Positions 5,514 to 19,298 of a stretch of 64,000 nucleotides of DNA are shown piece by piece. The notes beneath the pieces were generated by a model that saw only the letters and a list, made by a program, of their open reading frames with translations, searched no databases and was not told the origin of the DNA. Origin of the DNA: Planctomycetota bacterium. GTDB taxonomy: Bacteria > Planctomycetota > B15-G4 > JADJEK01. The position numbers and the translations under genes are program-made. Every line of letters starts with the position of its first letter. Within the stretch, counting starts at the first letter, position 1. The stretch covers positions 32,001-96,000 of the forward strand of contig JBGAIQ010000019.1 of NCBI GenBank assembly GCA_044225365.1. The letters run 5' to 3'.

Positions 5514-7589
5514 ATGACGACGACGATCACGAGAGACCGGCTGCGACGAAAGGCGTCCCCGGCTCTGCTGTTCCTCTTCACTCTTGCGAGCGCCGCGACG
5601 GCCGAGGATCGCCATCCACTCACGATCCACGACATGCTCGCGATGCAGCGCGTGGGGGACGTCGCCGTGTCGGCGGGCGGCACCAAACTCGCGTTCACCG
5701 TGCGCACGACGGACGTCGCCGCGAACACGGGTCGCTACGACGTGTGGCTCGTCGATGCGAAGGAGGGCGGTCCGCGTCGCCTCACGTCGAACGTCGCGAA
5801 CGACACGTCCCCGCGTTTCTCGCGCGACGATCTCTCGATCTACTTCCTCTCGTCCCGCAGCGGGTCCTCGCAGATCTGGTCGCTGTCCCTCATGGGCGGC
5901 GAGCCGACGCAGATCACGGACCTGCCGCTCGACATCGACAACTTCCTCGTCTTCCCCGATGGCCGTCGATTCCTCGTCTCCATGGAGGTGTATCCCGACG
6001 CCAAGGACCTCGCCGAGACCGCGGCGCGCGATGAAGCGAAGGCGAAGTCCAAGATGAAGGCGAAGGTCTACGACTCGCTCCTGTTCCGCCATTGGGATCA
6101 GTGGGAGGACGGCAAGCGCAGCCATTGGTTCACGCTCGACGCCGTGACGGGGAAAGCGACCGACCTGATGGCGGGCATGCCTTGCGACGCTCCGAACAAA
6201 CCGTTCGGCGGTGCGGAAGAAGCGACGATCCGGAACGACGGCAAGACGGTCGTGTTCGCGACGACGAACATGGGTCGCGAGGCGGCGTGGTCGACGAACG
6301 TCGATCTCTACAGCGTTCCTTCCGACGGATCCGCGGCGCCGACCTGCCTCACCACCGACAACCCGGCGACCGACAATCTCCCGCAATTCTCACCCGACGG
6401 ACGTTTCCTCGCGTACGTCGCGATGAAGCGGCCCATGTACGAATCGGATCGTCAGGGGCTCATGATCCGCGAGGTCGAGAGCGGAAAGGTCCGTGAGATC
6501 GCGCCCAACTGGGATCGTTCCGCGAGCGGCTTCACGTGGAGCCGCGACGGAAAGACGCTCTACGCGACCGCCGATCACATCGGCAACACCGGCCTGTTCG
6601 CCGTCGACGTCGGAAGCGGCACGGTGAAGCCGCTCATCGAGAAGGGCGCCGCGGGCGGCCCGGTCGCGATCGAGGGCGGAGTTGCGTTCCTCTGGAACGA
6701 CATGAAGCACCCCGATGAGATCCACACGCTCGACGCCGCGGGGAATCGAAAGGTCCTGACCGCGATCAACGCACCGCTGCTCGAGAAGATCGCCTTTGGC
6801 GACTACGAGCAGTACTCGTTCAAGGGCGCGCACGACGACACGGTCTACGGCTACGTGATGAAGCCGTGGAACTACGAGAGCGGCAAGAAGTACCCCGTCG
6901 CGTTCTTGATCCACGGCGGCCCGCAGGGCTCGTTCTCGGATCACTTCCACTATCGTTGGAACGCCGAAGCGTTCGCGGGCCGCGGACTCGGCGTCGTGTT
7001 CGTCGACTTCCATGGGTCGACGGGATACGGCCAGGCCTTCTGCGACTCGATCCGCGGCGATTGGGGCGGCGCACCGTACGAGGACTTGATGAAGGGCCTC
7101 GACGCCGCGCTCGCGAAGTACTCGTTCCTCGATGGCTCGCGCGTCGCGGCGGCGGGCGCGAGCTACGGCGGTTACATGATCAACTGGATCGCGGGCCAGA
7201 CGGATCGCTTCAAGTGCCTCGTCTGCCACGACGGCAATCTCGACAACCGAATGGCCTACCTCGACACCGAGGAACTCTGGTTCGACGAATGGGAGCACCA
7301 CGGCACGCCGTGGGAGAATCCCGACGCGTTCAGCAAGCACAACCCGATCGACTTCATCAAGAACTGGAAGACTCCGACGCTCGTCCTGCACGGCGGCAAC
7401 GACTTCCGCGTCGTCGATACGCACGGCATGGCGACGTTCACGGCGCTGCAGCGCAAAGGGATTCCGTCGAAGTTCGTGTTCTTCCCGGACGAGAATCACT
7501 GGGTGCTGAAGCCGCAGAATTCGATCCTCTGGCACGACAGCGTGCTCGACTGGATCGATCAGTGGACCAAGTCGCCGCCCGCCAAGTGA
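5514..7589 (+). CDS. S9 family (prolyl oligopeptidase/acylaminoacyl) peptidase, secreted
   Basis: Signal peptide, PD40/TolB-like propeller, IHGGPQ, GASYGG nucleophile, DFRV Asp and ENHW His. Confidence 0.92.
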   Translation: MTTTITRDRLRRKASPALLFLFTLASAATAEDRHPLTIHDMLAMQRVGDVAVSAGGTKLAFTVRTTDVAANTGRYDVWLVDAKEGGPRRLTSNVANDTSPRFSRDDLSIYFLSSRSGSSQIWSLSLMGGEPTQITDLPLDIDNFLVFPDGRRFLVSMEVYPDAKDLAETAARDEAKAKSKMKAKVYDSLLFRHWDQWEDGKRSHWFTLDAVTGKATDLMAGMPCDAPNKPFGGAEEATIRNDGKTVVFATTNMGREAAWSTNVDLYSVPSDGSAAPTCLTTDNPATDNLPQFSPDGRFLAYVAMKRPMYESDRQGLMIREVESGKVREIAPNWDRSASGFTWSRDGKTLYATADHIGNTGLFAVDVGSGTVKPLIEKGAAGGPVAIEGGVAFLWNDMKHPDEIHTLDAAGNRKVLTAINAPLLEKIAFGDYEQYSFKGAHDDTVYGYVMKPWNYESGKKYPVAFLIHGGPQGSFSDHFHYRWNAEAFAGRGLGVVFVDFHGSTGYGQAFCDSIRGDWGGAPYEDLMKGLDAALAKYSFLDGSRVAAAGASYGGYMINWIAGQTDRFKCLVCHDGNLDNRMAYLDTEELWFDEWEHHGTPWENPDAFSKHNPIDFIKNWKTPTLVLHGGNDFRVVDTHGMATFTALQRKGIPSKFVFFPDENHWVLKPQNSILWHDSVLDWIDQWTKSPPAK

Positions 7590-8254
7590 CGGCGGATCCA
7601 GAAGCGCTTCAGTGTGCGGGGGCTGTCCTTCGGGAGTTCGCCGCGTCCATGCACGATCCGCGTGTTGTCGACGTAGAGGCTCTGGCCCGGCTCGAGTCGC
7701 ACGTCGATCCGCGGCGAGGATTCGATCGCGTCGGAGAATCTCCGAAAGGTCTCGCGAACCGCCGGGTCTTCGATCGGAGCGACGTTCCAAGCGGCGTAGT
7801 AGACCCGCGGCCCTCCGCTGTCACGCGAGAGCAGCGGGACGAGCGTCGCGTCGAGGCGGCCGTCGACGTCCGGGCAACGCATCGTGATCTGGCCGAGACG
7901 ATCGCGATCGTCGTCGCTCAGTGAGTCGAGGATCGGCCTGCTGTCGACGAGGCGCGTCGCGCCCCCGATCTCCGCCGCGCGGACGCAATACCACGCGATC
8001 CGATCGACGTAGTGCTGATCCGTATGCAGTCCGAGTTCGCGCGGCGAATGCGCGCCGCGCGGACTGTTGCCGAGCTTGATGTCCTCGATTCGCAGGACGC
8101 TACCCAGGCATCTCCCGAGGTGGTAGAACGACCCGACGCGAATCGGTTGCTCGAGCACGTGGAAGCCGCGAGATTCCAGATCCCGCTCGATCATGGCGAC
8201 CGCTGCGGCGCCATCGAACGGGACTTCGCGAGGAGTGTCGGTCGATGCGGACAT
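7559..8254 (-). CDS. TauD/TfdA-family Fe(II)/2-oxoglutarate dioxygenase
   Basis: LHTD (HxD) motif, WYCVRAA..GGATRLVD, and DNTRIVHGR..R distal His/Arg motif. Confidence 0.82.
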   Translation of the reverse strand: MSASTDTPREVPFDGAAAVAMIERDLESRGFHVLEQPIRVGSFYHLGRCLGSVLRIEDIKLGNSPRGAHSPRELGLHTDQHYVDRIAWYCVRAAEIGGATRLVDSRPILDSLSDDDRDRLGQITMRCPDVDGRLDATLVPLLSRDSGGPRVYYAAWNVAPIEDPAVRETFRRFSDAIESSPRIDVRLEPGQSLYVDNTRIVHGRGELPKDSPRTLKRFWIRRHLAGGDLVH

Positions 8255-8345
8255 CACGATGTCGTATCCTCTCGGAATCTTCTCGCTTTCGTCGGCGACT
8301 CGGAGCGGCATTCGACATGACCAACGAACGGGGCAGCGAGCGCAA

Positions 8346-8852
8346 ATGAGCTACTCCACTCCATACCACGAACACGGCGTTCCCATCGACTCCGAGTTCT
8401 GTCGCGGCTCGAACACGGCGCGCAAGGCGCGACACGTTCTCGAGGATTCGCGCAGATTGCTGGGTTGCGACGAGGCCGCTCTCTGGGTGTTCAGCAAGGA
8501 CAACCAGAATCTCGTCGCCGCGCTGAATCACGGCAAGCACGAGAAGAGCGTCGAGGGACTCGAGGTCCAGATCCGCGGTTCGCTCGTCGGGCTCGTCGCA
8601 ATGACGGGCGAGGGCATCTGCGTAGGGCCCGATGCGAACTACAACCCGGAGGTCGCCCGCGCCCTCGACGTCAAGACGTACGCGATGGTCGCCGCCGCCG
8701 TCGTGGTCGACGACGAGATCTGTGGCGTGATCTCCGCGGTCAACCTGTACGGGACGACGGAGTCGATCTTCACCGTCGAGCACCTGCGTGCGGTGCAATG
8801 GGCGGCGTACGTCATGGGTCTCGTGCTCTCGGATTGCAAGAAGCGTGATTGA
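8346..8852 (+). CDS. Stand-alone GAF domain protein
   Basis: ..AALWVFS..GSLVGLVAMTGEGI..MVAAAVVVDDEICGVISAVN..FTVEHL is a GAF-type pattern. Confidence 0.75.
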   Translation: MSYSTPYHEHGVPIDSEFCRGSNTARKARHVLEDSRRLLGCDEAALWVFSKDNQNLVAALNHGKHEKSVEGLEVQIRGSLVGLVAMTGEGICVGPDANYNPEVARALDVKTYAMVAAAVVVDDEICGVISAVNLYGTTESIFTVEHLRAVQWAAYVMGLVLSDCKKRD

Positions 8853-9636
8853 CGCGCCGCTCACCGACGACGAATTGACCGCCGCGACCGGCGAGGGAAT
8901 TCGGGTGCTCGTGATGGACTCCGGAATCGAGTCCGATCACCCGACGCTCGTCGGCCGCGAGATCCCGAACTTCGAGGTCCTGCCGTTCCCGATCGGCGCC
9001 GACGTCACGTATCGAGTCCAATCGGCGCCCGGCGGCGATGCGTTCGGGCACGGAACCGCCGTCGCTTCCCTGCTCGTCGCGCATGCGCCAGGCGTGAAGA
9101 TCGAGAGCTTGCGGATGCTCGACGCCGATCGTCAGGGCAGTTCCGAGCGCGTCCTCGCCGGGCTGCGCTGGGCGATCGAGCGGCGCTTCGACATCGTGAA
9201 CTGCAGCTTCGGCACCTTCGGTCCGTCGACGACCAAGTTCCTCGCCTCCTACAAACGAGTCGTCGACATCGCATTCTGTGAGAACGTGCTGCTCATCGGC
9301 GCGTGCTCGAACTCGGACCATCGACTGACGTCGCTCCCGGCCTCGTTCCCGACCGTGCTCTCGACCGATGCCGGACGGATCGAGGATTCGCCGCTGCCGA
9401 AGGTGAAGCGACGCAAGGGACAACTCGTCGAGTTCGTGACGCGCGGCGTCGACGTCTCGGTGTCCTGGAAGGATGGCAGTTCGCGCCTCGTAACGGGTAG
9501 CAGCTTCGCTGCCCCGCACCTCGCGGCGCTCGTCGCCCGCATCCGACAATTGCGACCGCATTGGAATGCTTGCGAGATGAAGGCGGAGTTGTACCGTCGA
9601 TCCGAGCCCGTCACGGCCGCGGACGACGCCGACTGA
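8845..9636 (+). CDS. S8 (subtilisin-like) serine peptidase, no signal peptide or prodomain
   Basis: Triad motifs VMDSGI, GHGTAVAS and TGSSFAAPH. GTG start overlaps the end of the GAF gene. Confidence 0.88.
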   Translation: MIDAPLTDDELTAATGEGIRVLVMDSGIESDHPTLVGREIPNFEVLPFPIGADVTYRVQSAPGGDAFGHGTAVASLLVAHAPGVKIESLRMLDADRQGSSERVLAGLRWAIERRFDIVNCSFGTFGPSTTKFLASYKRVVDIAFCENVLLIGACSNSDHRLTSLPASFPTVLSTDAGRIEDSPLPKVKRRKGQLVEFVTRGVDVSVSWKDGSSRLVTGSSFAAPHLAALVARIRQLRPHWNACEMKAELYRRSEPVTAADDAD

Positions 9637-9711
9637 GGTCGCTGCGCGTGATGATCGAATTCGTTTCGATCGCGATTCAGGACCGATGGGGCGGGCAGGA
9701 GCGACCTCGAA

Positions 9712-10383
9712 GTGAGTGAAGCCGACGAATCGAAGAAGCCATCTCCATCGCTCGTACGCGCTCGCGGCGAGCCCTCGCTCGCAGAGTCCGCGCGCGAGTG
9801 GGATGCGTTCTTCACGAGCGGCAGGTATCGCGAGGAATGGCACCTCGATCAGGCGTCCCCCGAACTCATGTGCCTGCTCGCAGCGGGGATCGTCGTGCCG
9901 CCAGGGCGCGCGCTCGACCTGGGTTGTGGAGGTGGCACGGAGGCCGTGCATCTCGCGCAACAGGGTTTCACGGTGACGGCCCTCGACGTTTCGGGCGAGG
10001 CACTTGCGATGACTCGGCGGCTCGCGGCGCGGCGCGGCGTCAAGCTTGCAACGCTTCAGGCCTTCGTGCCGAGAACCGAGCTCCCCGACCAGTCCTTCGA
10101 CTTCATCAATGATCGCAGCTGCTTCCACGCCATCGAGCCGAGGCTCGAGGTGCTCACCGCCTACGCCGCGGAGATCCAGCGCATCCTGGTTCCGGGCGGC
10201 GTCCTGTTCATTCGCAGGTTCGGTCAGCCGCAGATCTCCCTCTCGACGTTCTCGTCCGTATTCTCAGAAGAAGCCGGATTCGATCTCGGGCGCGTTCAAG
10301 AGGTCCCCTTCCACGAACCTCATTTTCCCTCGCGAGTCGCCGTGATCCGGTGGCGGGGGAAGAGTGCGTCGCGAGCATCATGA
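9712..10383 (+). CDS. Class I SAM-dependent methyltransferase
   Basis: ALDLGCGGG motif I, VTALDVS, FDFINDRSCFH, LVPGG. Confidence 0.88.
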   Translation: MSEADESKKPSPSLVRARGEPSLAESAREWDAFFTSGRYREEWHLDQASPELMCLLAAGIVVPPGRALDLGCGGGTEAVHLAQQGFTVTALDVSGEALAMTRRLAARRGVKLATLQAFVPRTELPDQSFDFINDRSCFHAIEPRLEVLTAYAAEIQRILVPGGVLFIRRFGQPQISLSTFSSVFSEEAGFDLGRVQEVPFHEPHFPSRVAVIRWRGKSASRAS

Positions 10384-10396
10384 TGGAGGCAGTCGC

Positions 10397-11578
10397 ATGA
10401 GCATCGTCCTCGACCGTCGATCGTCGTCGCAGCCGCAATCGAACGATCCGCGAACCCTCCTTCCGCTCGAGGTGTTCTTCCAGAACATCCGCTACGTGAC
10501 GCTCAAGCTGACGAACGGCTGCAATCTGAAGTGCTCGTACTGCAACGTCGAGGCCGATTCGCCCACCACGCCGAAGATGAAGATCGAGACCTTCAAGAAG
10601 GTCGCGAAGCTCCTCATCGAGAACTCGAAGTTCCCGCAACTCGGACTCGAATTTCACGGCGGCGAGCCGATGCTCCTCCCCGATGCGTGGTACGAAGAAG
10701 CGGTCGGTTACGCGGGAGAACTCGCGAAGAAGCACGGCAAGTTCATTACGCATCCGCTGCAGACGAACGGCACGTTGCTCACGGAGGAACGCGCGAACAA
10801 GCTGATGTCGCTCGGAATCCAGATCGGCTTCTCGATCGACGGTCCGCCCGACATCAATGACAAGATGCGCGGCGCCGGCAAAGCCGTCGAGAAGGTGATT
10901 CGACGCATGAAGTCGCAGGGCCGCGGCTTCGGCTGCCTGCTCGTCCTGAACCGCTCGAACTGCAATCACATGTACCGGGTGATGGACTATTTCCGGGAGA
11001 TCGGGATCGAGAACTACCGGATCAACTTCCTGCAGCCGCAGGGTCGTGGCTTGACGCAGGATCTCCTGACGGCGGAGGAGATGTTCGCGGGTCTCAAGGG
11101 CATCTTCGATCACATGCTCGACACGAATTGCTCGGTGCTCGAGTCGACGACGCAGACGATGGTCCAGCGGTTCGCGATCGGTCGCAATCCGCAGCCGGCG
11201 CTCTCCTGCTGGGAATTCCAGTGTCAGGCCGGCCGCGTCTATTGCGCAATGAACGATCGCGGCGAACTCCACGCCTGCGGCACGGACATGCAGCACCATC
11301 GACTCGGTGACATCGACACGCCACTGAACCGCCCGCACGTGGAGGCGGTGCTGAAGAAGCTTCACCACAAGGACGAGTGGTACGTGCGCTGCTTCGACTG
11401 CAAGGCGCGGCGCATCTGTTCGATGTCGTGCCCGACGAGCGACCACAACGATCTCTTGTATCGCGAACGCGAGTGCGCGTACACCAAGATGATCTACCGC
11501 TACTACGCGGAGAACGAAGACAAGGTGCTGCAGCTCCATGCCCGGCTGCAGCAACTCCGCCCGAATGGGGCGATGTAA
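10397..11578 (+). CDS. Radical SAM/SPASM-domain peptide maturase
   Basis: CNLKCSYC (CX3CX2C), FHGGEP, QTNG and SIDGP motifs. C-terminal Cys-rich SPASM region with CFDCKARRICSMSCP..EC (CX2CX5CX3C). GGAGG RBS. Confidence 0.92.
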   Translation: MSIVLDRRSSSQPQSNDPRTLLPLEVFFQNIRYVTLKLTNGCNLKCSYCNVEADSPTTPKMKIETFKKVAKLLIENSKFPQLGLEFHGGEPMLLPDAWYEEAVGYAGELAKKHGKFITHPLQTNGTLLTEERANKLMSLGIQIGFSIDGPPDINDKMRGAGKAVEKVIRRMKSQGRGFGCLLVLNRSNCNHMYRVMDYFREIGIENYRINFLQPQGRGLTQDLLTAEEMFAGLKGIFDHMLDTNCSVLESTTQTMVQRFAIGRNPQPALSCWEFQCQAGRVYCAMNDRGELHACGTDMQHHRLGDIDTPLNRPHVEAVLKKLHHKDEWYVRCFDCKARRICSMSCPTSDHNDLLYRERECAYTKMIYRYYAENEDKVLQLHARLQQLRPNGAM

Positions 11579-11641
11579 GCGCGGAATTCCGCGCCTACGA
11601 TGCGAGGGCAGAGGTACTACGTCCCAAAAAGGAGTTTGAAC

Positions 11642-12088
11642 ATGGCTATCGTCCGCAGTGAGGACGGCCGTTTCTTCGACGTCGACGACACGGAACTCGA
11701 CAAGCATGAGATCAAGCCGGAAGACCTCCCGACCGGATCGGTCTACGCCCGCCCGCAAGGTGGGCCCGGGATGGGCGGTCCCGGCGCCGGTGGACCCGGG
11801 ATGGGCGGCCCGCGCGGCGGCGGCGGTGGTCCGGTGCAACTCGTCATCAATCTCGGCGGCGGCGGTGGAATGGGCGGCGGTGCGCCGCAGATGGGCTCCG
11901 GCCCGCAGGCGTCGGGTCCGGTTCAGCGCGGTCAGGGCGGGCAACAGGCCGGCGCGCGCGGTGATGTCCAGGCTCACAATTGGTGCGGCATGCCGTGGCC
12001 GTGGGGCAACTGGCACAACTGGCACAATTGGAACAACTGGAACAACTGGATGAACTGCTGGAACAACTGCTGGCACAACTGCAGCTGA
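11642..12088 (+). CDS. Putative RiPP precursor peptide (148 aa): acidic leader, Gly/Pro/Met-rich spacer, (WxN)8/Cys core
   Basis: AAGGAG RBS. C-terminus is DVQAH-NWCGMPWPWGNWHNWHNWNNWNNWMNCWNNCWHNCS. Located between the rSAM/SPASM and DUF692 genes. Confidence 0.85.
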   Translation: MAIVRSEDGRFFDVDDTELDKHEIKPEDLPTGSVYARPQGGPGMGGPGAGGPGMGGPRGGGGGPVQLVINLGGGGGMGGGAPQMGSGPQASGPVQRGQGGQQAGARGDVQAHNWCGMPWPWGNWHNWHNWNNWNNWMNCWNNCWHNCS

Positions 12089-12185
12089 GATCCAGCGCGG
12101 GGTGCGCCCGGTCGAGCGACCGCGCGCACCCCGCTCACCTCGAATCCCTCGTCCGTCCAAATCGCCCGGCGCCGAAGAGGTCCTC

Positions 12186-12575
12186 ATGACTCGGGTCTAC
12201 TCTCTCGATGGTCGCGTCTTCGAACTCGACGAATCGATGCTCGCCAAGTCGCAGATGGCGGCCGAAAAGGTGAGTCGCCTGATCGACAAGGACACGTTGC
12301 CCGAGCCGCCGCCGGTCGGCGACTTCCCGCAACAGGGCATTCCGCCGCACATCCAGCAGATGCTCGCGCAAGGGGTCGAACTGCCGATCCCCGAGGAAGC
12401 GCGTCACCTGGTGCGTGCGCGCAGCTTCATGGACGGAACGATCGTCATCGACATCGACGTTCGAGCGCTTCCCGGTTCGTCGGCGTGCGGGGGTCCCGCC
12501 TGTGGGCCCGCTCCGCGCGATCCCGCGGGGCAAACGCGGCCGGGCGAATGCGACTCCGGGGCCCGTCCGGCATGA
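12186..12575 (+). CDS. Small protein with precursor-leader-like N-terminus (second precursor or partner protein)
   Basis: MTRVYSLDGRVFELDESMLAK aligns with the precursor's MAIVRSEDGRFFDVDDTELDK. GAGG RBS; stop overlaps the DUF692 start (ATGA). Confidence 0.7.
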   Translation: MTRVYSLDGRVFELDESMLAKSQMAAEKVSRLIDKDTLPEPPPVGDFPQQGIPPHIQQMLAQGVELPIPEEARHLVRARSFMDGTIVIDIDVRALPGSSACGGPACGPAPRDPAGQTRPGECDSGARPA

Positions 12576-13711
12576 GGCCACGGCTTCCGGCGTACGGAGT
12601 GGGCATCGGCTACCGATACTGCATCCATCGCGAGATCTTGCGCTGCGCGCCGATGATCGATTTCCTCGAAGTCCCGTCGGAGGATTACGTCGAGGACGAT
12701 CGGCGAGCGCGATTCGATCCCGACGAATCCCTGCTGCGCGCCGCGGTCGAACGCTTCCCGTGCGTCGCGCACGGCACGGGTCTCTCGCTCGGCACTGCCG
12801 CGCCGCCGGATGAGAACTATCTGCAGCGGCTCGCGAACTTCGCCGAACGGACGCCGATCGGCGAGTATTCCGAGCACCTGTCGTTCATCCGCGGGATCGA
12901 TCACGAGGTCGATGCGTTCATGGCGCTCCCGTTCACCGACCTCGGCGTCGCGATCGCCGCCGAGAACGTGATGCGTTCCGCTCGAGCTCTCGGCGTCCCC
13001 TTCCTCGTCGAGAACGTGAGCTACTACTTCGCGCTGCCGGAGTCGACGTACAGTGAGGCCGAGTTCATCTCGCGGGTCGCGCAGGCTGCTGATTGCGGCA
13101 TCCTGCTGGATGTCGCGAACCTCCACATCAACGCCACGAATCACCATTACGACCCCGAGGCCTTCATCCGCGCCTTGCCGAAGGAGCGCGTGCTCCATTC
13201 GCATTTCTGCGGCGCGAGCCGAGGTCCGGATCGGTTCCTCTACGACACGCACTTCGAAGTGACGATGCCCGCCGTCTGGCGCATCCTCGATACGGCGTTG
13301 CGGGAGACGGCGCTGCGTGCGCTCGTGTTCGAACGCGATCAGCGGTTCGTTCCGTTCCAGGAGCCGATGGAAGAGATCTTCCAGGCGCGCGAGTTGTTCC
13401 GCCGGCATCGCAAGACCAAGCCATTGCTGCCCGTCACGACGCACTCGCCGGCTCCCGCGGGTGGCGACGATGCGGTCTACTCTCGGGAGTTGCGAAAGCT
13501 CCAGGACGTGCTGTGCCGGTTGTTGACCGACGAGGATCTCGGGCGCGCGGTCGAGCGCGAGGGTGAAACCGCGCTCGTCCACACCGGGATCGACCGCGAT
13601 TCGCGGCGCATCCTCGCCGCGATTCCGGGCGTCGCGCGCGAGCGCATCGGCCGGCGGCTGCGCGAGCGGCTGCGAAAGGGTGGGCGCTCCAACGTGGAAT
13701 CGTTGCCATGA
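12572..13711 (+). CDS. DUF692 / multinuclear non-heme iron-dependent oxidative enzyme (MNIO) with C-terminal helical extension
   Basis: GVGIGYR, HGTGLSLG, YSEHLSF, LVENVS, LLDVANL..N, HSHFCG, YDTH and VFERD motifs of DUF692, plus an extra C-terminal region of about 90 aa. Confidence 0.88.
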   Translation: MRPRLPAYGVGIGYRYCIHREILRCAPMIDFLEVPSEDYVEDDRRARFDPDESLLRAAVERFPCVAHGTGLSLGTAAPPDENYLQRLANFAERTPIGEYSEHLSFIRGIDHEVDAFMALPFTDLGVAIAAENVMRSARALGVPFLVENVSYYFALPESTYSEAEFISRVAQAADCGILLDVANLHINATNHHYDPEAFIRALPKERVLHSHFCGASRGPDRFLYDTHFEVTMPAVWRILDTALRETALRALVFERDQRFVPFQEPMEEIFQARELFRRHRKTKPLLPVTTHSPAPAGGDDAVYSRELRKLQDVLCRLLTDEDLGRAVEREGETALVHTGIDRDSRRILAAIPGVARERIGRRLRERLRKGGRSNVESLP

Positions 13712-15600
13712 CCGAATCGAGAGATCCGGGGCCGCCGCCGGGCATGAAGGACGCGGGACCTCCGAAGGGAGTTGCGGATAGTGGTCCGCCGCCGGGGATG
13801 AAGGACGAACCCCCGGCCGATGGCGGTCCACCGCCCGGGATGATCGACGCCCCGCCGAAGCTGGATCGGGAGACGATCGCGTTCTTCGTACCCTACGTGC
13901 GAAAGCAGCGCGGACGTCTCCTCGCGATCCTCGGCATGCTCCTGTTCTCCGCGCTGATGCCGGTCGCGATGAGCTTCCTGCCGACGAAGCTCGCTCAGAA
14001 TTGGCATCCGGGCGGCGAACACGAAGTCATGAAGTGGCTCGTGGCATTCCTGGCGCTCTCGGTCGTCGCGCTCACGCTCGCGCCCGTCCAGGGTTATCTG
14101 ACGGCGCGCGTCGCGCAGGACCTCGCGTGTGATCTGAAGGGCGCGATCTTCCGCAAGGTCGGCGCGATGTCGAAGACCGCGATGGCGTTCCGGTCGGTCG
14201 GATCGCTCGCGCATCGCAGCTCCGGCGATGTCGCTCATCTCCAGGAGTTCCTCGCCCGCTTCGTGCCCGATGCCGTCGCGAACGTGATCCAGCTCGTGTT
14301 CGTCGTCCTCGCGATGCTCTGGCTGCAGCCGGTCATCGCGATCGTCGGGCTCGTCCTCGTTCCGACGATCTGGTTCATCATGGACCGCTTCAACGCGAAG
14401 GTTCGACTGCTCGCACGCAGTTCGCAGAAACAGAGCGAGTCGTCGCTCACGCGGCTGATCGAGGGCGTCGCGGGGTACATCGATCTCGTCGCCGCCGGAC
14501 GCTTCCCCAAGGCCGCGGACGAATACGTGAGCGTGCTCGACGATCTGCGGCGCACGGCGATCAAGATGACGCTGACGAGTTCGATCGCCGCGCTCATTCC
14601 GAGCATCGCGTTCATGGCGATCACGAACGGCTACTACTTCGTCGCCGCGGCCGACGAGAAAATGCTCGCCGCGACGACGGTCGGATTCGGCCAGGTGATG
14701 ACCTTCGTTTCGCTGATCAACGTCGTGCGCATGCCGATCATGACGCTCGCTCGGTTCTTCACCGAGACCGCGATCGCCGCTCCGAGCTTCCACGAAGTGA
14801 AGAAGCTCCTCGAGTCGCCCGAGGTGTCCGCGCCGACGCACGGCGTGAAGATCGACGGCAGCGCGATCGAGTTCAAGGGCGTGGTATTCAGTTACGGCCC
14901 AGGCTTCCCGCCCGTGCTCGATGGCGTCTCGTTCCGGATTCCCGAAGGGAGCTTCACAGCGATCGTCGGCGAGACCGGGTCCGGCAAGACGACGCTCTTC
15001 CACATGCTGCTGCGGCTCCTCGAGCCGACGAGCGGAGAGATCCGCCTCGGCAACTCGACGCTCGGCGCGATCGCCCTCGAGGATTTGCGGTCGTACGTCG
15101 GATTCATTCCGCAGTCGCCTTTCCTGTTCGATGCGACGATTCGTGAGAACGTCGCGATCGCGCTCGCCGAGAACGAAGTCGATCAGGAGCGATTGCTGCG
15201 GGCCGTGAAGCTCGCGCGGCTGGAGCCCGTCGTCGAGAAGCGCAAATCCCAGGGCGGACTCGATGCCAAGGTCGGCGCCGCCGGCGCGAGTCTCTCGGGC
15301 GGAGAACGGCAGCGCGTCGCGCTCGCGCGCGTCTTCCTGCGCGATCCCAAGATCATCGTCTGCGACGAATACACGGCGAACATCGACAACGCGACGGCGC
15401 GGATCATCCAGGAGTCGATCGCACGCGAATTCGCCGGGCGCACGCGCGTCGTCATCACGCATCAGCTCTACACGATCCGCGGGGCGGATCAGATCCTGGT
15501 GCTCGACCGCGGGCGAATCGTCGATCGGGGCACGCACGAGGAACTCGTCGCGCGCGGCGGGCTGTATCGTGAGATGTGGGAAGTCCAGCGGCTCGCGTGA
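13708..15600 (+). CDS. ABC exporter, fused permease/ATPase (no C39 peptidase domain)
   Basis: TM domain, Walker A GETGSGKT, LSGGERQR signature, Walker B IIVCDE, H-loop ITHQ. ATGA overlap with the MNIO gene. Confidence 0.92.
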   Translation: MTESRDPGPPPGMKDAGPPKGVADSGPPPGMKDEPPADGGPPPGMIDAPPKLDRETIAFFVPYVRKQRGRLLAILGMLLFSALMPVAMSFLPTKLAQNWHPGGEHEVMKWLVAFLALSVVALTLAPVQGYLTARVAQDLACDLKGAIFRKVGAMSKTAMAFRSVGSLAHRSSGDVAHLQEFLARFVPDAVANVIQLVFVVLAMLWLQPVIAIVGLVLVPTIWFIMDRFNAKVRLLARSSQKQSESSLTRLIEGVAGYIDLVAAGRFPKAADEYVSVLDDLRRTAIKMTLTSSIAALIPSIAFMAITNGYYFVAAADEKMLAATTVGFGQVMTFVSLINVVRMPIMTLARFFTETAIAAPSFHEVKKLLESPEVSAPTHGVKIDGSAIEFKGVVFSYGPGFPPVLDGVSFRIPEGSFTAIVGETGSGKTTLFHMLLRLLEPTSGEIRLGNSTLGAIALEDLRSYVGFIPQSPFLFDATIRENVAIALAENEVDQERLLRAVKLARLEPVVEKRKSQGGLDAKVGAAGASLSGGERQRVALARVFLRDPKIIVCDEYTANIDNATARIIQESIAREFAGRTRVVITHQLYTIRGADQILVLDRGRIVDRGTHEELVARGGLYREMWEVQRLA

Positions 15601-15648
15601 GCCGTCGTCGGATACTCCCCGCTTCGCTCTCGTTCCCGGAATCCTCCC

Positions 15649-16698
15649 GTGACCTCGCAATCGGTCCACGGCCGCGGCGCGGCCGACAATCCCGACAACC
15701 GATTCGTCCGCCTCACGGTCGAGCCCGATCCGGAGTGCAGCCAAGAAGAGCGGGCGATCGTCACCGAGTACTTCGTCGATGCCTCGAAGACGATCCTGTC
15801 GCGCAACGACAGCCCCGACATCGGATTCGAGTTCAGCGTCAACCCTTATCGGGGCTGCGAGCACGGATGCATCTACTGCTACGCGCGGCCGACGCACGAA
15901 TACCTCGGCCTCTCCGCGGGGCTCGAGTTCGAGAGCAAGATCTTCGTGAAGGAGAAGGCGCCCGAACTCCTGCGCGCGGAACTGATGAACGAGAGGTGGC
16001 GGCCGCAGGCGATCAACTTCTCGGGTGTGACCGATTGTTATCAACCGCTCGAGCGACGGCTGCGCCTCACGCGGCGCTGTCTCGAAGTGCTGATCGAGTT
16101 CAAGAACCCGGCGGCCGTCATCACCAAGAGCGCGCTGATCGAGCGCGACATCGACGTGCTGGCCGAACTCGCGGCGATCGGCGGAGCGCTCGTGGGCATC
16201 ACGATCACGACGCTCGATGAGTCGCTCGCTTCCAAGCTCGAGCCGCGCGCCGCTTCCCCGCGGCGGCGAATCGGCGCGATCGCAGCACTGGCAAACGCGG
16301 GCGTCCCGGTGCACGTGATGACGGCGCCGATCGTGCCCGGGCTCACCGATCACGAGATCCCGGCGATCCTGAAGGCCGCTGCAGAAGCCGGTGCGCGGTC
16401 AGCGGGATGGACTCTTCTGCGGCTCCCGCACGCCGTGAACCCGTTGTTCGAGGACTGGCTCACGCGGTACGCGCCGGGTCAGAAGGAGAAGGTGCTGCGA
16501 CGCATCGAGGACGCGCGCGGCGGCGAGCGGCACGACTCCAGATTCCATGTTCGGATGCGCGGTGAAGGACGCATCGCCGAGGAAGTTGCCGACATGTTCG
16601 CCTTCGCGCGCGACCGCGCGGGCCTCGCGCCGGATGCTCCGAAACTGTCCGCGACGCACTTTCGTCGACCTGGCCCGCAACAGGGCAAGCTCTTCTGA
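15649..16698 (+). CDS. PA0069/Rv2578c-family (SplB-like) radical SAM protein
   Basis: NPYRGCEHGCIYCYARPTH, TDCYQPLE, LEPRA, and C-terminal QGKLF. Confidence 0.9.
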   Translation: MTSQSVHGRGAADNPDNRFVRLTVEPDPECSQEERAIVTEYFVDASKTILSRNDSPDIGFEFSVNPYRGCEHGCIYCYARPTHEYLGLSAGLEFESKIFVKEKAPELLRAELMNERWRPQAINFSGVTDCYQPLERRLRLTRRCLEVLIEFKNPAAVITKSALIERDIDVLAELAAIGGALVGITITTLDESLASKLEPRAASPRRRIGAIAALANAGVPVHVMTAPIVPGLTDHEIPAILKAAAEAGARSAGWTLLRLPHAVNPLFEDWLTRYAPGQKEKVLRRIEDARGGERHDSRFHVRMRGEGRIAEEVADMFAFARDRAGLAPDAPKLSATHFRRPGPQQGKLF

Positions 16699-16777
16699 TG
16701 GACCGCCAAGCTCCAGCTTGGCTCCTCTCTTCTCTTCCGATGGACCGCCAAGCTCCAGCTTGGCTCCTCTCTTCTCT
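16697..16777. repeat. Two identical 39-bp REP-like units (GATGGACC-GCCAAGCTCCAGCTTGGC-TCCTCTCTTCTCT)
   Basis: Units at 16697-16735 and 16739-16777 with an internal palindrome; between convergent genes. Confidence 0.82.
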
Positions 16778-16801
16778 GAGAGCCCATCGCTCCCACGCTG
16801 C

Positions 16802-17176
16802 TCAGCCCGCCGCTGCCGCCCCCGCAGCCCCGGCGGCCCCGGCACCTGCCGCCGCCTGGTCGCTCGCCTCCTGAGCCGCGAGGATCGCGAGCAGTTCGCT
16901 CCGGTTCGACCCTATGGCGCTCGTGACGTACACGATCCCGCTTCCGAGTCCGGGAAGATCGTTCGTCCAGAGGATCGCGCCGTTCTCTGGGTCGAGCGCG
17001 AAGGCGCGGCCACCCGCCGCGCAGAACACGAGCCCGTCTTCGTAGAGGATCGAGACGACGCCGTAGCCGGTGCTCGGCAGGGAGGTCTGCCAGATGGTCC
17101 TACCGCTCGCCTTCTCGATTGCGGCCACATGACCGTAGGTGCCGAGGAAGAGGAGTTTGTGCGCAGCGATCGTCAT
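16802..17176 (-). CDS. Small PQQ-like beta-propeller repeat protein
   Basis: VAAIEKASGRTIWQT and FALDPENGAILWTN repeats. Confidence 0.75.
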   Translation of the reverse strand: MTIAAHKLLFLGTYGHVAAIEKASGRTIWQTSLPSTGYGVVSILYEDGLVFCAAGGRAFALDPENGAILWTNDLPGLGSGIVYVTSAIGSNRSELLAILAAQEASDQAAAGAGAAGAAGAAAAG

Positions 17177-19082: not shown

Positions 19083-19298
19083 GGAGCGCCGGGCTCTGCC
19101 CGGCAATGGGGCGGCGATGCGGAGGAAAGAAGATGCCAGGCTGGAGCCTGGCGGTCCGCCTGGCGGTCCGAATTTGGAGCGCCGGGCTCTGCCCGGCAAT
19201 GGGGCGGCGATGCGGAGGAAAGAAGATGCCAGGCTGGAGCCTGGCGCTCCGCCTGGCGGTCCACCTGGCGGTCCACCGGGCGCTCCGCCTGGTGGTCC
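19083..19298. repeat. BIME-like array: two copies (93-bp period) of an inverted REP pair plus ~12-bp CCTGGCGGTCC repeats
   Basis: GGAGC-GCCGGGCTCTGCCCGGC...GCCAGGCTGGAGCCTGGC-G(G/C)TCC starting at 19083 and 19176. Confidence 0.85.

What the first reader, a model, noticed from the sequence alone, without database searches (positions are those of the whole stretch)
7559..15600. Hybrid radical-SAM/SPASM + MNIO (DUF692) RiPP biosynthetic cluster
Seen: eight tightly packed + strand genes (GAF, S8 peptidase, methyltransferase, rSAM/SPASM, WxN/Cys-rich small ORF, leader-like small ORF, DUF692, ABC exporter) with several start/stop overlaps, plus a divergent Fe/2OG dioxygenase. Known: SPASM rSAM enzymes form three-residue cyclophanes on aromatic-x-Asn motifs (triceptides such as the XYE, Grr/Osc and Fxs types), and MNIOs (MbnB, TglH, ChrH) oxidatively rearrange Cys in RiPPs. 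Inference: the pathway makes a poly-cyclophane peptide with additional Cys oxidation, methylation and hydroxylation. I do not recognise this enzyme combination from any characterised pathway.
Basis: partly seen in the sequence, partly recalled or inferred. Interest (0 to 1): 0.92.

Follow-up and report, generated by a model that had tools for sequence, protein, structure and literature searches.

The report
Trp-x-Asn repeat peptide biosynthetic cluster
This is a real gene cluster for a ribosomal peptide whose core is a run of Trp-x-Asn motifs. It belongs to a small, unnamed family of such clusters, and its product is probably a ladder of small cross-linked rings that no one has yet made or characterised.

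Summary
Eight co-directional genes (GAF, S8 peptidase, methyltransferase, radical SAM/SPASM, two small ORFs, MNIO/DUF692, ABC exporter) and a divergent TauD-type dioxygenase lie at 7559-15600.

Related loci show which parts are core. These are the rSAM, a precursor directly downstream (19 of 20 loci), a GAF-S8 gene pair (12 of 12 loci holding S8) and an ABC exporter. The MNIO occurs in 6 loci, all with Cys in the core. TauD occurs in 4 loci and the methyltransferase in 2, so these three are accessory.

The precursor belongs to an unnamed family of 98 proteins, all labelled 'hypothetical' or left unnamed and without a Pfam domain. Each has a conserved leader (MAILRSxDGKFYEVPD) and a C-terminal run of W-x-N motifs: 371 observed against 66±7 in shuffled cores. 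The window's copy has eight.

Trp(i)-to-Asn(i+2) Cβ cyclophanes are documented triceptide chemistry. However, this rSAM reaches no curated family cut-off, so the cross-link type is inferred from the substrate, not shown.

The second small ORF is a conserved leader-only paralogue, not an ordinary precursor. My searches found no paper describing this family. I rate it a good genome-mining lead and a new variant of a known kind.

The parts
7559..8254 (-). TauD/clavaminate-synthase-like Fe(II)/2-oxoglutarate dioxygenase, 231 aa (longest ORF reaches 8311). Accessory tailoring enzyme.
   Evidence: PF02668 at 62.9 bits. Homologues sit beside the rSAM in L017, L020 and L026. H96, D98, H221 and R223 are invariant in 4 of 4.
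8346..8852 (+). Small GAF-domain protein, 168 aa, translationally coupled to the S8 peptidase.
   Evidence: PF01590 at 40.8 bits. A GAF gene lies directly upstream of S8 in 12 of 12 loci that hold S8. Its stop overlaps the S8 start by 8 nt.
8845..9636 (+). Subtilisin-like S8 serine peptidase, 263 aa. Probable leader peptidase.
   Evidence: PF00082 at 72.6 bits. Sub-threshold matches to QhpE (74.1 bits against cut-off 165) and mycosin. D25, H69, N156 and S220 are invariant in 6 of 6.
9712..10383 (+). Class I SAM methyltransferase, TPMT/TehB-like, 223 aa. Accessory.
   Evidence: Methyltransf_11 61.2, TPMT 46.6, TehB 36.6 bits. Found elsewhere only in the close relative L026, at 70% identity.
10397..11578 (+). 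Radical SAM/SPASM peptide maturase, 393 aa, with no N-terminal RRE-sized extension.
   Evidence: PF04055 at 63.5 bits. CX3CX2C and 8 SPASM Cys are invariant in 8 of 8. Best NCBIfam matches are all below cut-off: PapB 114.9/340, anSME 105.1/349, DynA 104.6/450, QhpD 104.3/453. PDB: CteB 89 bits, anSME 84, ChlB 69.
11642..12088 (+). Precursor peptide preA, 148 aa: leader, Gly-rich linker and W-x-N core.
   Evidence: Member of a family of 98 proteins with no Pfam domain and no source name beyond 'hypothetical protein'. A precursor is adjacent to the rSAM in 19 of 20 loci. Residues 1-30 are modelled as a β-hairpin plus helix at pLDDT 85-91, and the rest is disordered.
11963..11977 (+). DVQAH motif (residues 108-112), the probable leader cleavage site.
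   Evidence: The Val is at least 90% conserved in 85 sequences. Family variants are EVQPY, DVEPY and DVGGR. The translation was checked. The cleavage itself is inferred.
11978..12085 (+). Predicted core peptide, N113-S148 (36 aa). It has eight W-x-N motifs (W121, 124, 127, 130, 133, 136, 140, 144) and four Cys (C115, 139, 143, 147).
   Evidence: W136/N138, W140/N142 and W144/N146 are at least 90% conserved.
12186..12575 (+). preB, 129 aa: a leader-like, core-less paralogue with a clade-specific Cys/Gly tail. Its stop overlaps the MNIO start.
   Evidence: A leader HMM built without it scores it at E 1.1e-4 among 3672 ORFs. The same HMM finds equivalents in L001, L014, L018, L013 and L024. A search of the 5.8-billion-protein database returned 11 proteins, counting those of the query alignment.
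12572..13711 (+). MNIO (DUF692) enzyme, 379 aa, of a distinct subfamily.
   Evidence: PF05114 at 234 bits. HvfB 193.5/360 and BufB 188.5/310 are below cut-off. There are 29 close homologues of 373-414 aa (261-856 bits), then a drop to 178 bits. AF2 pLDDT is 93.9. Foldseek: 3bww 9.6e-19, TglH 8hi7_B 9e-16, MbnB 7dz9_A 1.6e-12.
13424..13708 (+). C-terminal extension of the MNIO, about 95 aa. Four helices, 305-376.
   Evidence: Confidently modelled and present in the loci's MNIOs. It gave no Pfam hit at E≤10 apart from a chance-level one. It is not covered by solved MNIO chains, which align over 281-301 columns.
13708..15600 (+). ABC exporter (fused permease/ATPase), 630 aa, with an N-terminal Pro-rich GPPxG repeat stretch and no C39 peptidase domain.
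   Evidence: ABC_membrane and ABC_tran. Homologues at 34-45% identity in L001-L004, and in two pieces (28% and 54%) in L005. The N-terminal repeats are seen in 8 of 9 exporters inspected.

Best explanation
This is a biosynthetic gene cluster for a ribosomally made, post-translationally modified peptide (RiPP).

Shown:
- preA is a precursor with a conserved about 30-residue N-terminal recognition element, a disordered Gly/Pro linker and a C-terminal core of eight W-x-N motifs.
- It is always encoded next to a SPASM radical SAM enzyme.
- A GAF-S8 peptidase pair and an ABC exporter complete the conserved core of the cluster.

Inferred mechanism:
1. The radical SAM enzyme abstracts a hydrogen from Asn Cβ and joins that carbon to the indole of the Trp two residues upstream. 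This happens at each W-x-N, giving a ladder of up to eight three-residue cyclophanes (-2 Da each), as in triceptides.
2. The MNIO, which carries its own C-terminal helical domain in place of a separate partner protein, then oxidises the Cys residues that follow Asn in the core (N-C-W/S). This is probably bufferin-like Cys-to-thiooxazole chemistry.
3. The TPMT/TehB-like methyltransferase may methylate the resulting sulfur, and the TauD-like enzyme may hydroxylate a side chain.
4. The cytoplasmic S8 peptidase, working with its GAF partner, removes the leader after the (D/E)-V-x-x-(Y/H/R) motif.
5. The ABC transporter exports the product.

The role of the leader-only paralogue preB is open.
For: Precursor and synteny:
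- A precursor lies directly downstream of the rSAM in 18 loci by pattern search, and in L024 by HMM. That is 19 of the 20 loci that hold DNA downstream of the rSAM.
- Hosts by record title are Verrucomicrobiales, four Planctomycetota and two Hyphomicrobiales.

W-x-N motif:
- 371 of the 505 Trp in the cores have Asn at +2, against 66±7 W-x-N in shuffles. 85 of 98 cores have two or more W-x-N.
- One member has F-R-N-C in place of W-R-N-C, so an aromatic residue substitutes.
- W-x-N holds in both period-3 arrays (WHNWHN) and period-4 arrays (WRNC, WHNHH). Of the 371 W-x-N, 146 are followed by C and 86 directly by another W.

Precedent for the chemistry:
- XncB links Trp C6 to Cβ of Arg or Asn. 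OscB links Trp C7 to Cβ of Asn or Asp, between residues i and i+2 (PMC11002830, section 16 passages).
- A WVN cyclophane occurs in a xenorceptide (bioRxiv 10.1101/2024.12.16.628070, passage).
- The W-R-R-N variants (P0051, P0054, P0065) parallel dynobactin's Trp(i)-Asn(i+3) link.

rSAM: CX3CX2C and a full SPASM Cys set.

MNIO:
- Domain, fold and invariant H67, H102, E147, D180, N183, H211, D225, H227, E254.
- Nearest curated families are HvfB and BufB.
- All 6 MNIO-bearing loci (window, L003, L005, L007, L018, L020) have Cys in the core.
- Both Cys-free loci with 8 kb held on each side (L002, L004) lack an MNIO.
- In L007 and L020 the MNIO gene directly follows a Cys-bearing precursor.

S8 and export: the catalytic D/H/S and oxyanion N are invariant. 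The exporter has no C39 domain.

Leader: the first about 30 residues are modelled with confidence, and the Val of DVQAH is at least 90% conserved.
Against: - No cross-link has been observed.
- The rSAM is not a member of any curated cyclophane synthase family: GrrM/OscB 68.3/310, YhhB 72.1/445, AmcB 77.4/425, DarE 80.8/650, DynA 104.6/450.
- It scores as well or better against thioether formers and anSME: PapB 114.9, QhpD 104.3, anSME 105.1; CteB 89 bits against ChlB 69 in the PDB.
- Ten of its nearest relatives also reach no cut-off.
- The MNIO-Cys link rests on few, related loci. L001 is an exception: it has Cys in both cores but no MNIO within 8 kb on either side.
- MNIOs also act on non-Cys residues, including N-Cα cleavage at Asn (PMC11002830 passage) and Phe hydroxylation (PMC12257519).
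- The C-terminal extension of the MNIO shows no significant profile similarity to DUF2063 (hhalign probability 0.8, E 0.071 over 22 columns).
- The roles of the methyltransferase and TauD enzyme are guesses from family type only.
Confidence: 0.6

Rival explanations
1. The radical SAM enzyme makes thioether (ranthipeptide/sactipeptide-type) bridges from Cys sulfur to a side-chain carbon, for example Asn Cβ as in the NxxC peptides. On this reading W-x-N is only a structural or recognition motif.
For: The highest-scoring curated and solved relatives include thioether formers: PapB 114.9 bits and QhpD 104.3, and CteB 5wgg at 89 bits. 64 of 98 cores have Cys in the last 30 residues, usually right after Asn. 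A Cys-to-Asn S-Cβ link is a known rSAM product (PMC11002830 passage).
Against: 34 of 98 family members have no Cys in the last 30 residues (a few of these are truncated or frameshifted entries). Cys-free cores such as WHNHHWHNHH sit beside intact rSAM genes in L002, L004, L015 and L019. All the cited scores are far below cut-off and reflect the shared rSAM/SPASM scaffold.
Confidence: 0.12
2. The radical SAM enzyme modifies Trp or Asn in another way. Candidates are a Trp-Trp ether or C-C link of the daropeptide kind, epimerisation, or another Asn side-chain reaction, with no Trp-Asn cyclophane.
For: The enzyme lies outside all characterised families, so new chemistry cannot be excluded. DarE, DarW and DynA give sub-threshold matches of 80-105 bits. 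In period-3 arrays the Trp residues are regularly spaced.
Against: Trp-Trp spacing varies between 3, 4 and 5 residues among family members, while Asn at W+2 is kept in 371 of 505 Trp. Daropeptides need aromatic-x-aromatic (PMC12912966 passage), which is not the conserved pattern here.
Confidence: 0.15
3. The MNIO does not act on the Cys of the W-x-N core. In this window it modifies the Cys/Gly tail of preB, whose gene is translationally coupled to it, or it acts on Asn or on the C-terminus of preA.
For: The preB stop overlaps the MNIO start (ATGA). Precursor-then-MNIO is the usual order in the MNIO clusters tabulated in PMC12452194 (sections 17-18). The preB tail has three Cys, kept in a 93%-identical homologue. 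MNIOs that cleave at Asn or hydroxylate Phe exist.
Against: preB-type proteins of other loci have no Cys tail (L018, L013, P0220-P0228) and also occur without an MNIO in L001. In L007 and L020 the MNIO follows a Cys-bearing W-x-N precursor directly.
Confidence: 0.2
4. This is not a peptide natural-product cluster. The rSAM is an anSME-like or cofactor-maturing enzyme and the small ORFs are chance ORFs in high-GC DNA.
For: anSME is among the best matches (105.1 bits; 4k37 aligned over the full length). High-GC DNA yields many spurious ORFs.
Against: The small ORF is conserved in sequence and position across phyla, with 98 homologues. No sulfatase lies nearby. The anSME score is far below its cut-off of 349. 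A leader peptidase and an exporter travel with it.
Confidence: 0.02

Closest known systems
Triceptides (three-residue cyclophane RiPPs made by rSAM/SPASM 3-CyFEs such as XncB, OscB/GrrM, MscB, YhhB, HaaB, ChlB)
   Same: Both have a precursor with repeated aromatic-x-X motifs next to a SPASM radical SAM enzyme. Trp-to-Asn(i+2) Cβ links are documented for XncB and OscB (PMC11002830 passages; definition in PMC11499958 passages). From recall, the GrrM/OscB precursors also have Gly-rich stretches.
   Different: The maturase reaches no curated 3-CyFE cut-off, and its nearest relatives are all unnamed. The precursor family matches no NCBIfam model at E≤10. Up to eight or nine motifs sit back to back. 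A GAF-S8 pair replaces the peptidase-bearing exporters that I recall for XYE systems. MNIO tailoring is present in part of the family.
Dynobactin/darobactin maturases (DynA, DarE)
   Same: DynA is among the best sub-threshold matches (104.6 bits over residues 47-380). Dynobactin has a Trp-to-Asn Cβ bond.
   Different: Dynobactin's link is i to i+3 and occurs once in a short core. Scores are far below cut-offs (450 and 650). Leader and gene neighbourhood are unrelated.
Bufferin and HvfB-type MNIO systems (BufB/BufC)
   Same: These are the nearest curated MNIO families (HvfB 193.5 bits, BufB 188.5 bits). The nearest solved structure is the DUF692 protein 3bww. The substrate contains Cys.
   Different: Scores are below both cut-offs (360 and 310). 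There is no DUF2063 partner gene in the cluster; the genome's only match is on contig C77. Instead the MNIO has a fused helical C-terminal extension. By eye the precursor has no Sec signal peptide, whereas most MNIO precursors have one (PMC12452194 abstract). The MNIO subfamily is separated by a score gap, 261 to 178 bits.
Quinohemoprotein amine dehydrogenase maturation module (QhpD rSAM, QhpE subtilisin, QhpF ABC exporter)
   Same: Both use the same logic: a SPASM rSAM cross-links a small polypeptide, a cytoplasmic subtilisin-like peptidase removes its leader, and an ABC transporter exports it (module roles recalled). QhpD scores 104.3 bits and QhpE 74.1 bits.
   Different: Both scores are well below cut-offs (453 and 165). 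There are no dehydrogenase subunit genes nearby. QhpD makes Cys thioethers (recalled), which Cys-free cores here cannot form.
pbs (biphenomycin-like) and aminopyruvatide pathways: characterised MNIO + radical SAM hybrids
   Same: An MNIO and a radical SAM enzyme act on one RiPP precursor (PMC12257519, abstract and passages).
   Different: Those use B12-dependent rSAMs, separate MNIO partner proteins and short FHAFRF-type or Asp-terminal cores. None has a SPASM enzyme with W-x-N repeats.

Membership tests
Triceptide RiPPs / 3-CyFE maturases | Core holds aromatic(1)-X2-X3 motifs | tested here: met
   Eight W-x-N in the window's core. Across the family 371 of the 505 Trp have Asn at +2, against 66±7 W-x-N in shuffles.
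Triceptide RiPPs / 3-CyFE maturases | rSAM/SPASM enzyme encoded beside the precursor | tested here: met
   CX3CX2C plus 8 SPASM Cys. Precursor adjacent in 19 of 20 loci.
Triceptide RiPPs / 3-CyFE maturases | Maturase belongs to a characterised 3-CyFE family (GrrM/OscB TIGR04261, YhhB NF041707, AmcB NF041718) | tested here: not met
   68.3/310, 72.1/445 and 77.4/425 bits, aligned over the N-terminal half only. ChlB 9gm3 aligned over profile positions 19-172 only.
Triceptide RiPPs / 3-CyFE maturases | Aromatic carbon to Cβ C-C bond, -2 Da per motif | not testable with these tools
   Needs expression, MS/MS and NMR.
MNIO (PF05114, MbnB/TglH/ChrH) | PF05114 domain above the gathering score | tested here: met
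   234 bits against a cut-off of 25.
MNIO (PF05114, MbnB/TglH/ChrH) | TIM-barrel fold like solved MNIOs, with conserved metal ligands | tested here: met
   AF2 pLDDT 93.9. Foldseek 3bww 9.6e-19, 8hi7_B 9e-16, 7dz9_A 1.6e-12. Nine His/Asp/Glu/Asn are invariant in 40 sequences. Their assignment as iron ligands is recalled from MbnB.
MNIO (PF05114, MbnB/TglH/ChrH) | Partner protein (DUF2063, MbnC or TglI type) | tested here: inconclusive
   There is no such gene in the cluster. The fused 4-helix extension shows no significant similarity to DUF2063 (hhalign probability 0.8).
Bufferin maturase BufB / HvfB equivalogs | Score above the NCBIfam cut-off | tested here: not met
   188.5/310 and 193.5/360.
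Ranthipeptide maturase PapB | Score above cut-off, and Cys present in every substrate | tested here: not met
   114.9/340. Cys-free cores occur in L002, L004, L015 and L019.
Anaerobic sulfatase maturase | Score above cut-off, and a sulfatase substrate gene | tested here: not met
   105.1/349.45. No sulfatase among the ten ORFs scanned.
QhpD/QhpE quinohemoprotein maturation | Scores above cut-offs | tested here: not met
   QhpD 104.3/453 and QhpE 74.1/165.

The most novel reading that the evidence does not exclude
This is a new RiPP class. Its scaffold would be a rigid ladder of up to eight contiguous Trp-Asn cyclophanes, made by a radical SAM clade unrelated to known triceptide synthases. In part of the family it would be capped by MNIO-made sulfur heterocycles that bind metal. 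Leader handling would also be unconventional. A GAF-domain protein, rather than an RRE, would present the β-hairpin leader to an S8 peptidase. A stand-alone leader-only paralogue (preB) would act in trans, as an activator or a gatekeeper of modification or export.
Probability: 0.15. Interest if true: 0.85.

Novelty: new variant of a known kind. Interest (0 to 1): 0.62.

Why it matters
Cyclophane RiPPs include the BamA-targeting antibiotics darobactin, dynobactin and the xenorceptides. Their cross-links lock peptides into strand-like shapes.

A family with eight or more back-to-back Trp-x-Asn motifs would be an extreme case of that architecture. It is made by an uncharacterised SPASM clade and comes from phyla (Planctomycetota, Verrucomicrobiota) that have yielded few natural products.

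Pairing with a distinct, partner-less MNIO subfamily offers a test of how MNIOs recognise substrates without a DUF2063-type protein. The universal GAF-S8 pair and the leader-only paralogue point to leader handling that has not been described.

All of this is directly testable by co-expression in E. coli with about five genes.

Tried and rejected
- Complex prediction of GAF + S8 + leader gave 'no answer' (score 0.00 against a mark of 0.32). It counts neither for nor against binding.
- hhalign of the MNIO C-terminal extension (29 sequences) against 12 DUF2063 proteins from the phylum gave probability 0.8, E 0.071, over 22 columns. This gives no support for a fused DUF2063.
- Pfam at E≤10 on the extension, preA and preB found nothing meaningful. 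NCBIfam at E≤10 on five preA-type precursors, two preB-type proteins and the GAF protein gave nothing above chance level. The ESM Atlas gave only 'hypothetical protein' clusters at 0.86 and 0.79.
- The promoter and terminator scan of 7000-17000 found 0 promoter-like sites, and 5 terminator-like sites against 5.1 expected.
- Sequencing runs: no RNA holder is listed. Two DNA runs of one sample hold the stretch, one of which may be its source. The others hold small shares that I did not lay.
- The rSAM profile against 1.84 billion representatives gave a continuum of scores (551 down to 150 bits; 293 proteins at E≤1e-30) with no clear family boundary. I therefore dropped the idea of a sharply separate rSAM clade.
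- The leader-profile search of 401 genomes of the phylum found the family in 2, including the window's own genome. It is rare among those searched.
- A search of the window's own genome with preA found only itself plus one chance-level hit at E 0.28.
- Two literature searches were badly designed and uninformative.
- I did not build a tree with characterised cyclophane and thioether synthases.
- Supplementary files of PMC12452194 (Fig. S3 and its cluster lists) and of the triceptide papers were not seen. They might list this MNIO or rSAM group.

Full report
**What is there.** Pfam and NCBIfam give the following:

| Gene | Best hit |
|---|---|
| TauD-type dioxygenase (- strand) | PF02668, 62.9 bits |
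| GAF protein | PF01590 |
| S8 peptidase | 72.6 bits |
| Class I methyltransferase | closest to TPMT/TehB types |
| Radical SAM enzyme | PF04055, 63.5 bits |
| Two small ORFs | no hit |
| MNIO | PF05114, 234 bits |
| Fused ABC exporter | ABC_membrane + ABC_tran |

- The SPASM domain gave no Pfam hit. It is plain in the sequence as CFDCKARRICSMSC.
- Eight auxiliary Cys and the CX3CX2C motif are invariant in an alignment of 8 homologues.
- After checking start codons the eight + strand genes are separated by -8, 75, 13, 63, 97, -4 and -4 nt. That is consistent with one operon.
- The PA0069-family radical SAM gene at 15649-16698 scores 460.7 bits against a cut-off of 360. It does not recur in related loci, so I leave it out of the cluster.

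**Relatives define the core of the cluster.**
- A scan of one genome per species found 7 loci with the rSAM at 49-61% identity. By record title they are one Verrucomicrobiales, four Planctomycetota and two Hyphomicrobiales.
- A metagenome scan added 21 loci, of which about 16 are close relatives at 39-77% identity.
- Twenty loci hold DNA downstream of the rSAM. Eighteen have a preA-type ORF there by pattern search. L024 has a truncated leader-like ORF by HMM. L025 holds only 256 bp downstream and shows none.
- An S8 gene is present in 12 loci including the window. In all 12 a GAF-domain gene lies directly upstream of it.
- The S8 catalytic Asp, His and Ser and the oxyanion Asn are invariant in 6 of 6 aligned.
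- Homologous ABC exporters follow the precursors in L001-L005, L014, L018 and L023, and flank the preB-type gene in L013.

The accessory genes are less widespread.
- The MNIO occurs in the window, L003, L005 (frameshifted in that assembly), L007, L018 and L020.
- TauD occurs in the window, L017, L020 and L026.
- The methyltransferase occurs only in the window and L026.
- L026 is a close relative (rSAM 77% identical) with the same S9-TauD-GAF-S8-MTase-rSAM order.
- The TauD homologues keep H96, D98, H221 and R223 in 4 of 4.

**The precursor family.**
- A profile of nine precursors retrieved 98 proteins from the 5.8-billion-protein collection. None has a Pfam domain or any source name beyond 'hypothetical protein'.
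- All begin MAI(L/V)R(S/G)xDG(K/R)FY(E/D)(V/I)(P/D)D. A Gly/Pro-rich linker follows, then a (D/E)-V-x-(P/A/G)-(Y/H/R) motif, and they end in a Trp/Asn-rich core.
- In the last 40 residues, 371 of the 505 Trp have Asn at +2. Shuffling each core gives 66±7 W-x-N, with a maximum of 85 in 1000 shuffles. 85 of 98 cores have at least two W-x-N.
- The 13 exceptions fall into three groups. Eight or so are truncated or frameshifted entries. One has F-R-N-C repeats. Three have W-R-R-N.
- The window's preA has eight W-x-N, at W121 to W144. Six are back to back (period 3) and two are W-x-N-C. It has four Cys.
- AlphaFold2 with 85 sequences models only residues 1-30 with confidence, as a β-hairpin plus a short helix at pLDDT 85-91. 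The rest is disordered.
- The family is rare. The leader profile found it in 2 of 401 genomes of the window's phylum, its own included.

**What the radical SAM enzyme probably does.**
- Triceptides are defined by an aromatic-to-Cβ bond on aromatic(1)-X2-X3 motifs (PMC11499958, passages).
- Trp-to-Asn links between i and i+2 are documented for XncB and OscB (PMC11002830, section 16 passages). A WVN cyclophane occurs in a xenorceptide (bioRxiv 10.1101/2024.12.16.628070, passage). Dynobactin has Trp(i)-Asn(i+3), which matches the W-R-R-N variants.
- W-x-N is the one feature kept across period-3, period-4 and period-5 arrays and across Cys-rich and Cys-free cores. A Trp-Asn cyclophane at each motif is therefore the best-supported reaction.

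This is an inference from the substrate only.
- The enzyme reaches no curated cut-off. PapB scores 114.9/340, anSME 105.1/349, DynA 104.6/450 and QhpD 104.3/453. The cyclophane families GrrM/OscB, YhhB and AmcB score 68-77 bits.
- Its profile hits CteB (89 bits), anSME (84) and ChlB (69, N-terminal part only) in the PDB.
- Against 1.84 billion representatives the scores fall smoothly from 551 to 150 bits. Ten of the nearest relatives are likewise unnamed by NCBIfam.
- Thioether formation is the main rival. It is disfavoured because Cys-free cores (L002, L004, L015, L019) sit beside intact rSAM genes, and 34 of 98 family members have no Cys in the last 30 residues.

**The MNIO.**
- It belongs to a distinct subfamily of 29 clusters, 373-414 aa long, scoring 261-856 bits. 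The next hits are ordinary bufferin-type MNIOs of about 285 aa, at 178 bits and below.
- The AlphaFold2 model is confident (pLDDT 93.9). It shows the TIM barrel plus four C-terminal helices at 305-376.
- Foldseek finds the DUF692 structure 3bww, TglH and MbnB over about 281-301 columns. That covers the barrel only.
- Nine candidate metal ligands are invariant in 40 sequences.
- No DUF2063, MbnC or TglI-type gene is in the cluster. The genome's single DUF2063 match is on another contig.
- The extension may stand in for a partner protein, but hhalign against DUF2063 gave no support.

Evidence on its substrate:
- All six MNIO-bearing loci have Cys in the core.
- The two Cys-free loci with 8 kb held on each side have no MNIO.
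- L001 is an exception, with Cys but no MNIO.
- L006, L014 and L017 have Cys, but their contigs end too soon to tell.
- The loci are few and related, so this is a lead and not a test.

The nearest curated families, HvfB and BufB, suggest Cys oxidation. MNIOs acting on Asn or Phe are also known.

**The second small ORF.**
- A leader HMM built without preB detects it at E 1.1e-4 among 3672 ORFs.
- The same HMM finds core-less equivalents in L001, L014, L018, L013 and L024, each placed after the last precursor. Where the downstream DNA is held, the ABC gene follows directly.
- A profile of five of them retrieved 11 proteins, including those of the query alignment.
- Most are 81-92 aa and end just after a conserved NPFV+V..G.N..IINV..P strand.
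- The Cys/Gly tail of the window's copy is shared only with its closest relatives.
- preB is thus a conserved leader-only paralogue. It occurs with and without an MNIO. Its role is unknown.

**Comparison with the literature.**
- MNIO plus radical SAM hybrids exist, such as pbs, which uses a B12-rSAM (PMC12257519, abstract and passages).
- I found no paper holding 'cyclophane', 'radical SAM' and 'planctomycet' together.
- I found none holding 'GAF domain', 'RiPP' and 'leader peptide' together.
- Among the 12 papers holding 'MNIO' and 'SPASM', none describes such a cluster, judged from titles and abstract openings.
- The MNIO landscape paper PMC12452194 has no occurrence of SPASM, Trp or Planctomyc in its main text. 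Its only 'radical SAM' and 'cyclophane' hits are in the reference list. Its supplements were not seen.
- Subscription-only papers are outside the library, including the 2022 triceptide landscape and the rSAM-RiPP atlas. Prior listing of this family in an SSN cannot be excluded.

**Verdict.** The reading as a hybrid rSAM/SPASM + MNIO RiPP cluster is right in kind, and its chemistry is plausible but unproven. I rate it a new variant of a known kind, with interest 0.62. It offers a well-defined, experimentally tractable family with several unusual parts: an extreme W-x-N ladder, a partner-less MNIO, a GAF-S8 pair and a leader-only paralogue. It does not depart from RiPP logic.

Noticed in passing
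window 13708-13857; also L001, L003, L004, L005, L014, L018, L023: The ABC exporter starts with a cytoplasmic stretch of repeated (D)PGPPxG motifs. The repeats are seen in 8 of the 9 exporters inspected; L002 lacks clear repeats. Their function is unknown. A docking site for the Trp-rich peptide is only a guess.
   Followed up: partly
window 5514-7589 (+): An S9 (prolyl-oligopeptidase-type) peptidase with a signal-peptide-like N-terminus converges on the TauD gene and overlaps it by 31 nt. It is conserved next to TauD only in the close relative L026, at 77% identity. S9 peptidases do process some cyclophane RiPPs (PMC12957482, search listing only).
   Followed up: partly
L017 761-4541; L020 2146-5847: In two relatives the TauD gene follows a long ABC protein (866-896 aa, with an insertion in the ATPase domain) and a cyclic-nucleotide-binding protein. 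L020 also has a TPR-sensor adenylate/guanylate cyclase. This may reflect cNMP-linked regulation of the cluster.
   Followed up: no
L018 6388-7089: An ECF-type sigma factor gene, followed by an ORF with no family, sits between the S8 and rSAM genes. In the window the methyltransferase occupies that position.
   Followed up: no
L019 1-1979; L027: L019 holds two tandem copies of the rSAM gene, and L027 holds fragmentary overlapping matches. These could be duplication or assembly artefact.
   Followed up: no
L005 12053-13269: The MNIO gene is split over two frames in this assembly. This is either a frameshift or a sequencing error.
   Followed up: no
G000 contig C77:10825-11022: The window's genome has one DUF2063 match (47.7 bits) on another contig. 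A second, conventional MNIO/bufferin-type system may therefore exist elsewhere in the genome.
   Followed up: no
window 16690-16773 and 19083-19262: There are two intergenic tandem duplications: 42 nt x2 at 98% identity and 87 nt x2 at 99%. Each contains a short palindrome (CCAAGCTCCAGCTTGG and CCAGGCTGGAGCCTGG). They may be REP-like elements.
   Followed up: partly
window 15649-16698 (+): A PA0069-family radical SAM protein (460.7 bits against a cut-off of 360) lies 48 nt after the ABC gene. It is not conserved in related loci, so it is probably an unrelated neighbour.
   Followed up: yes
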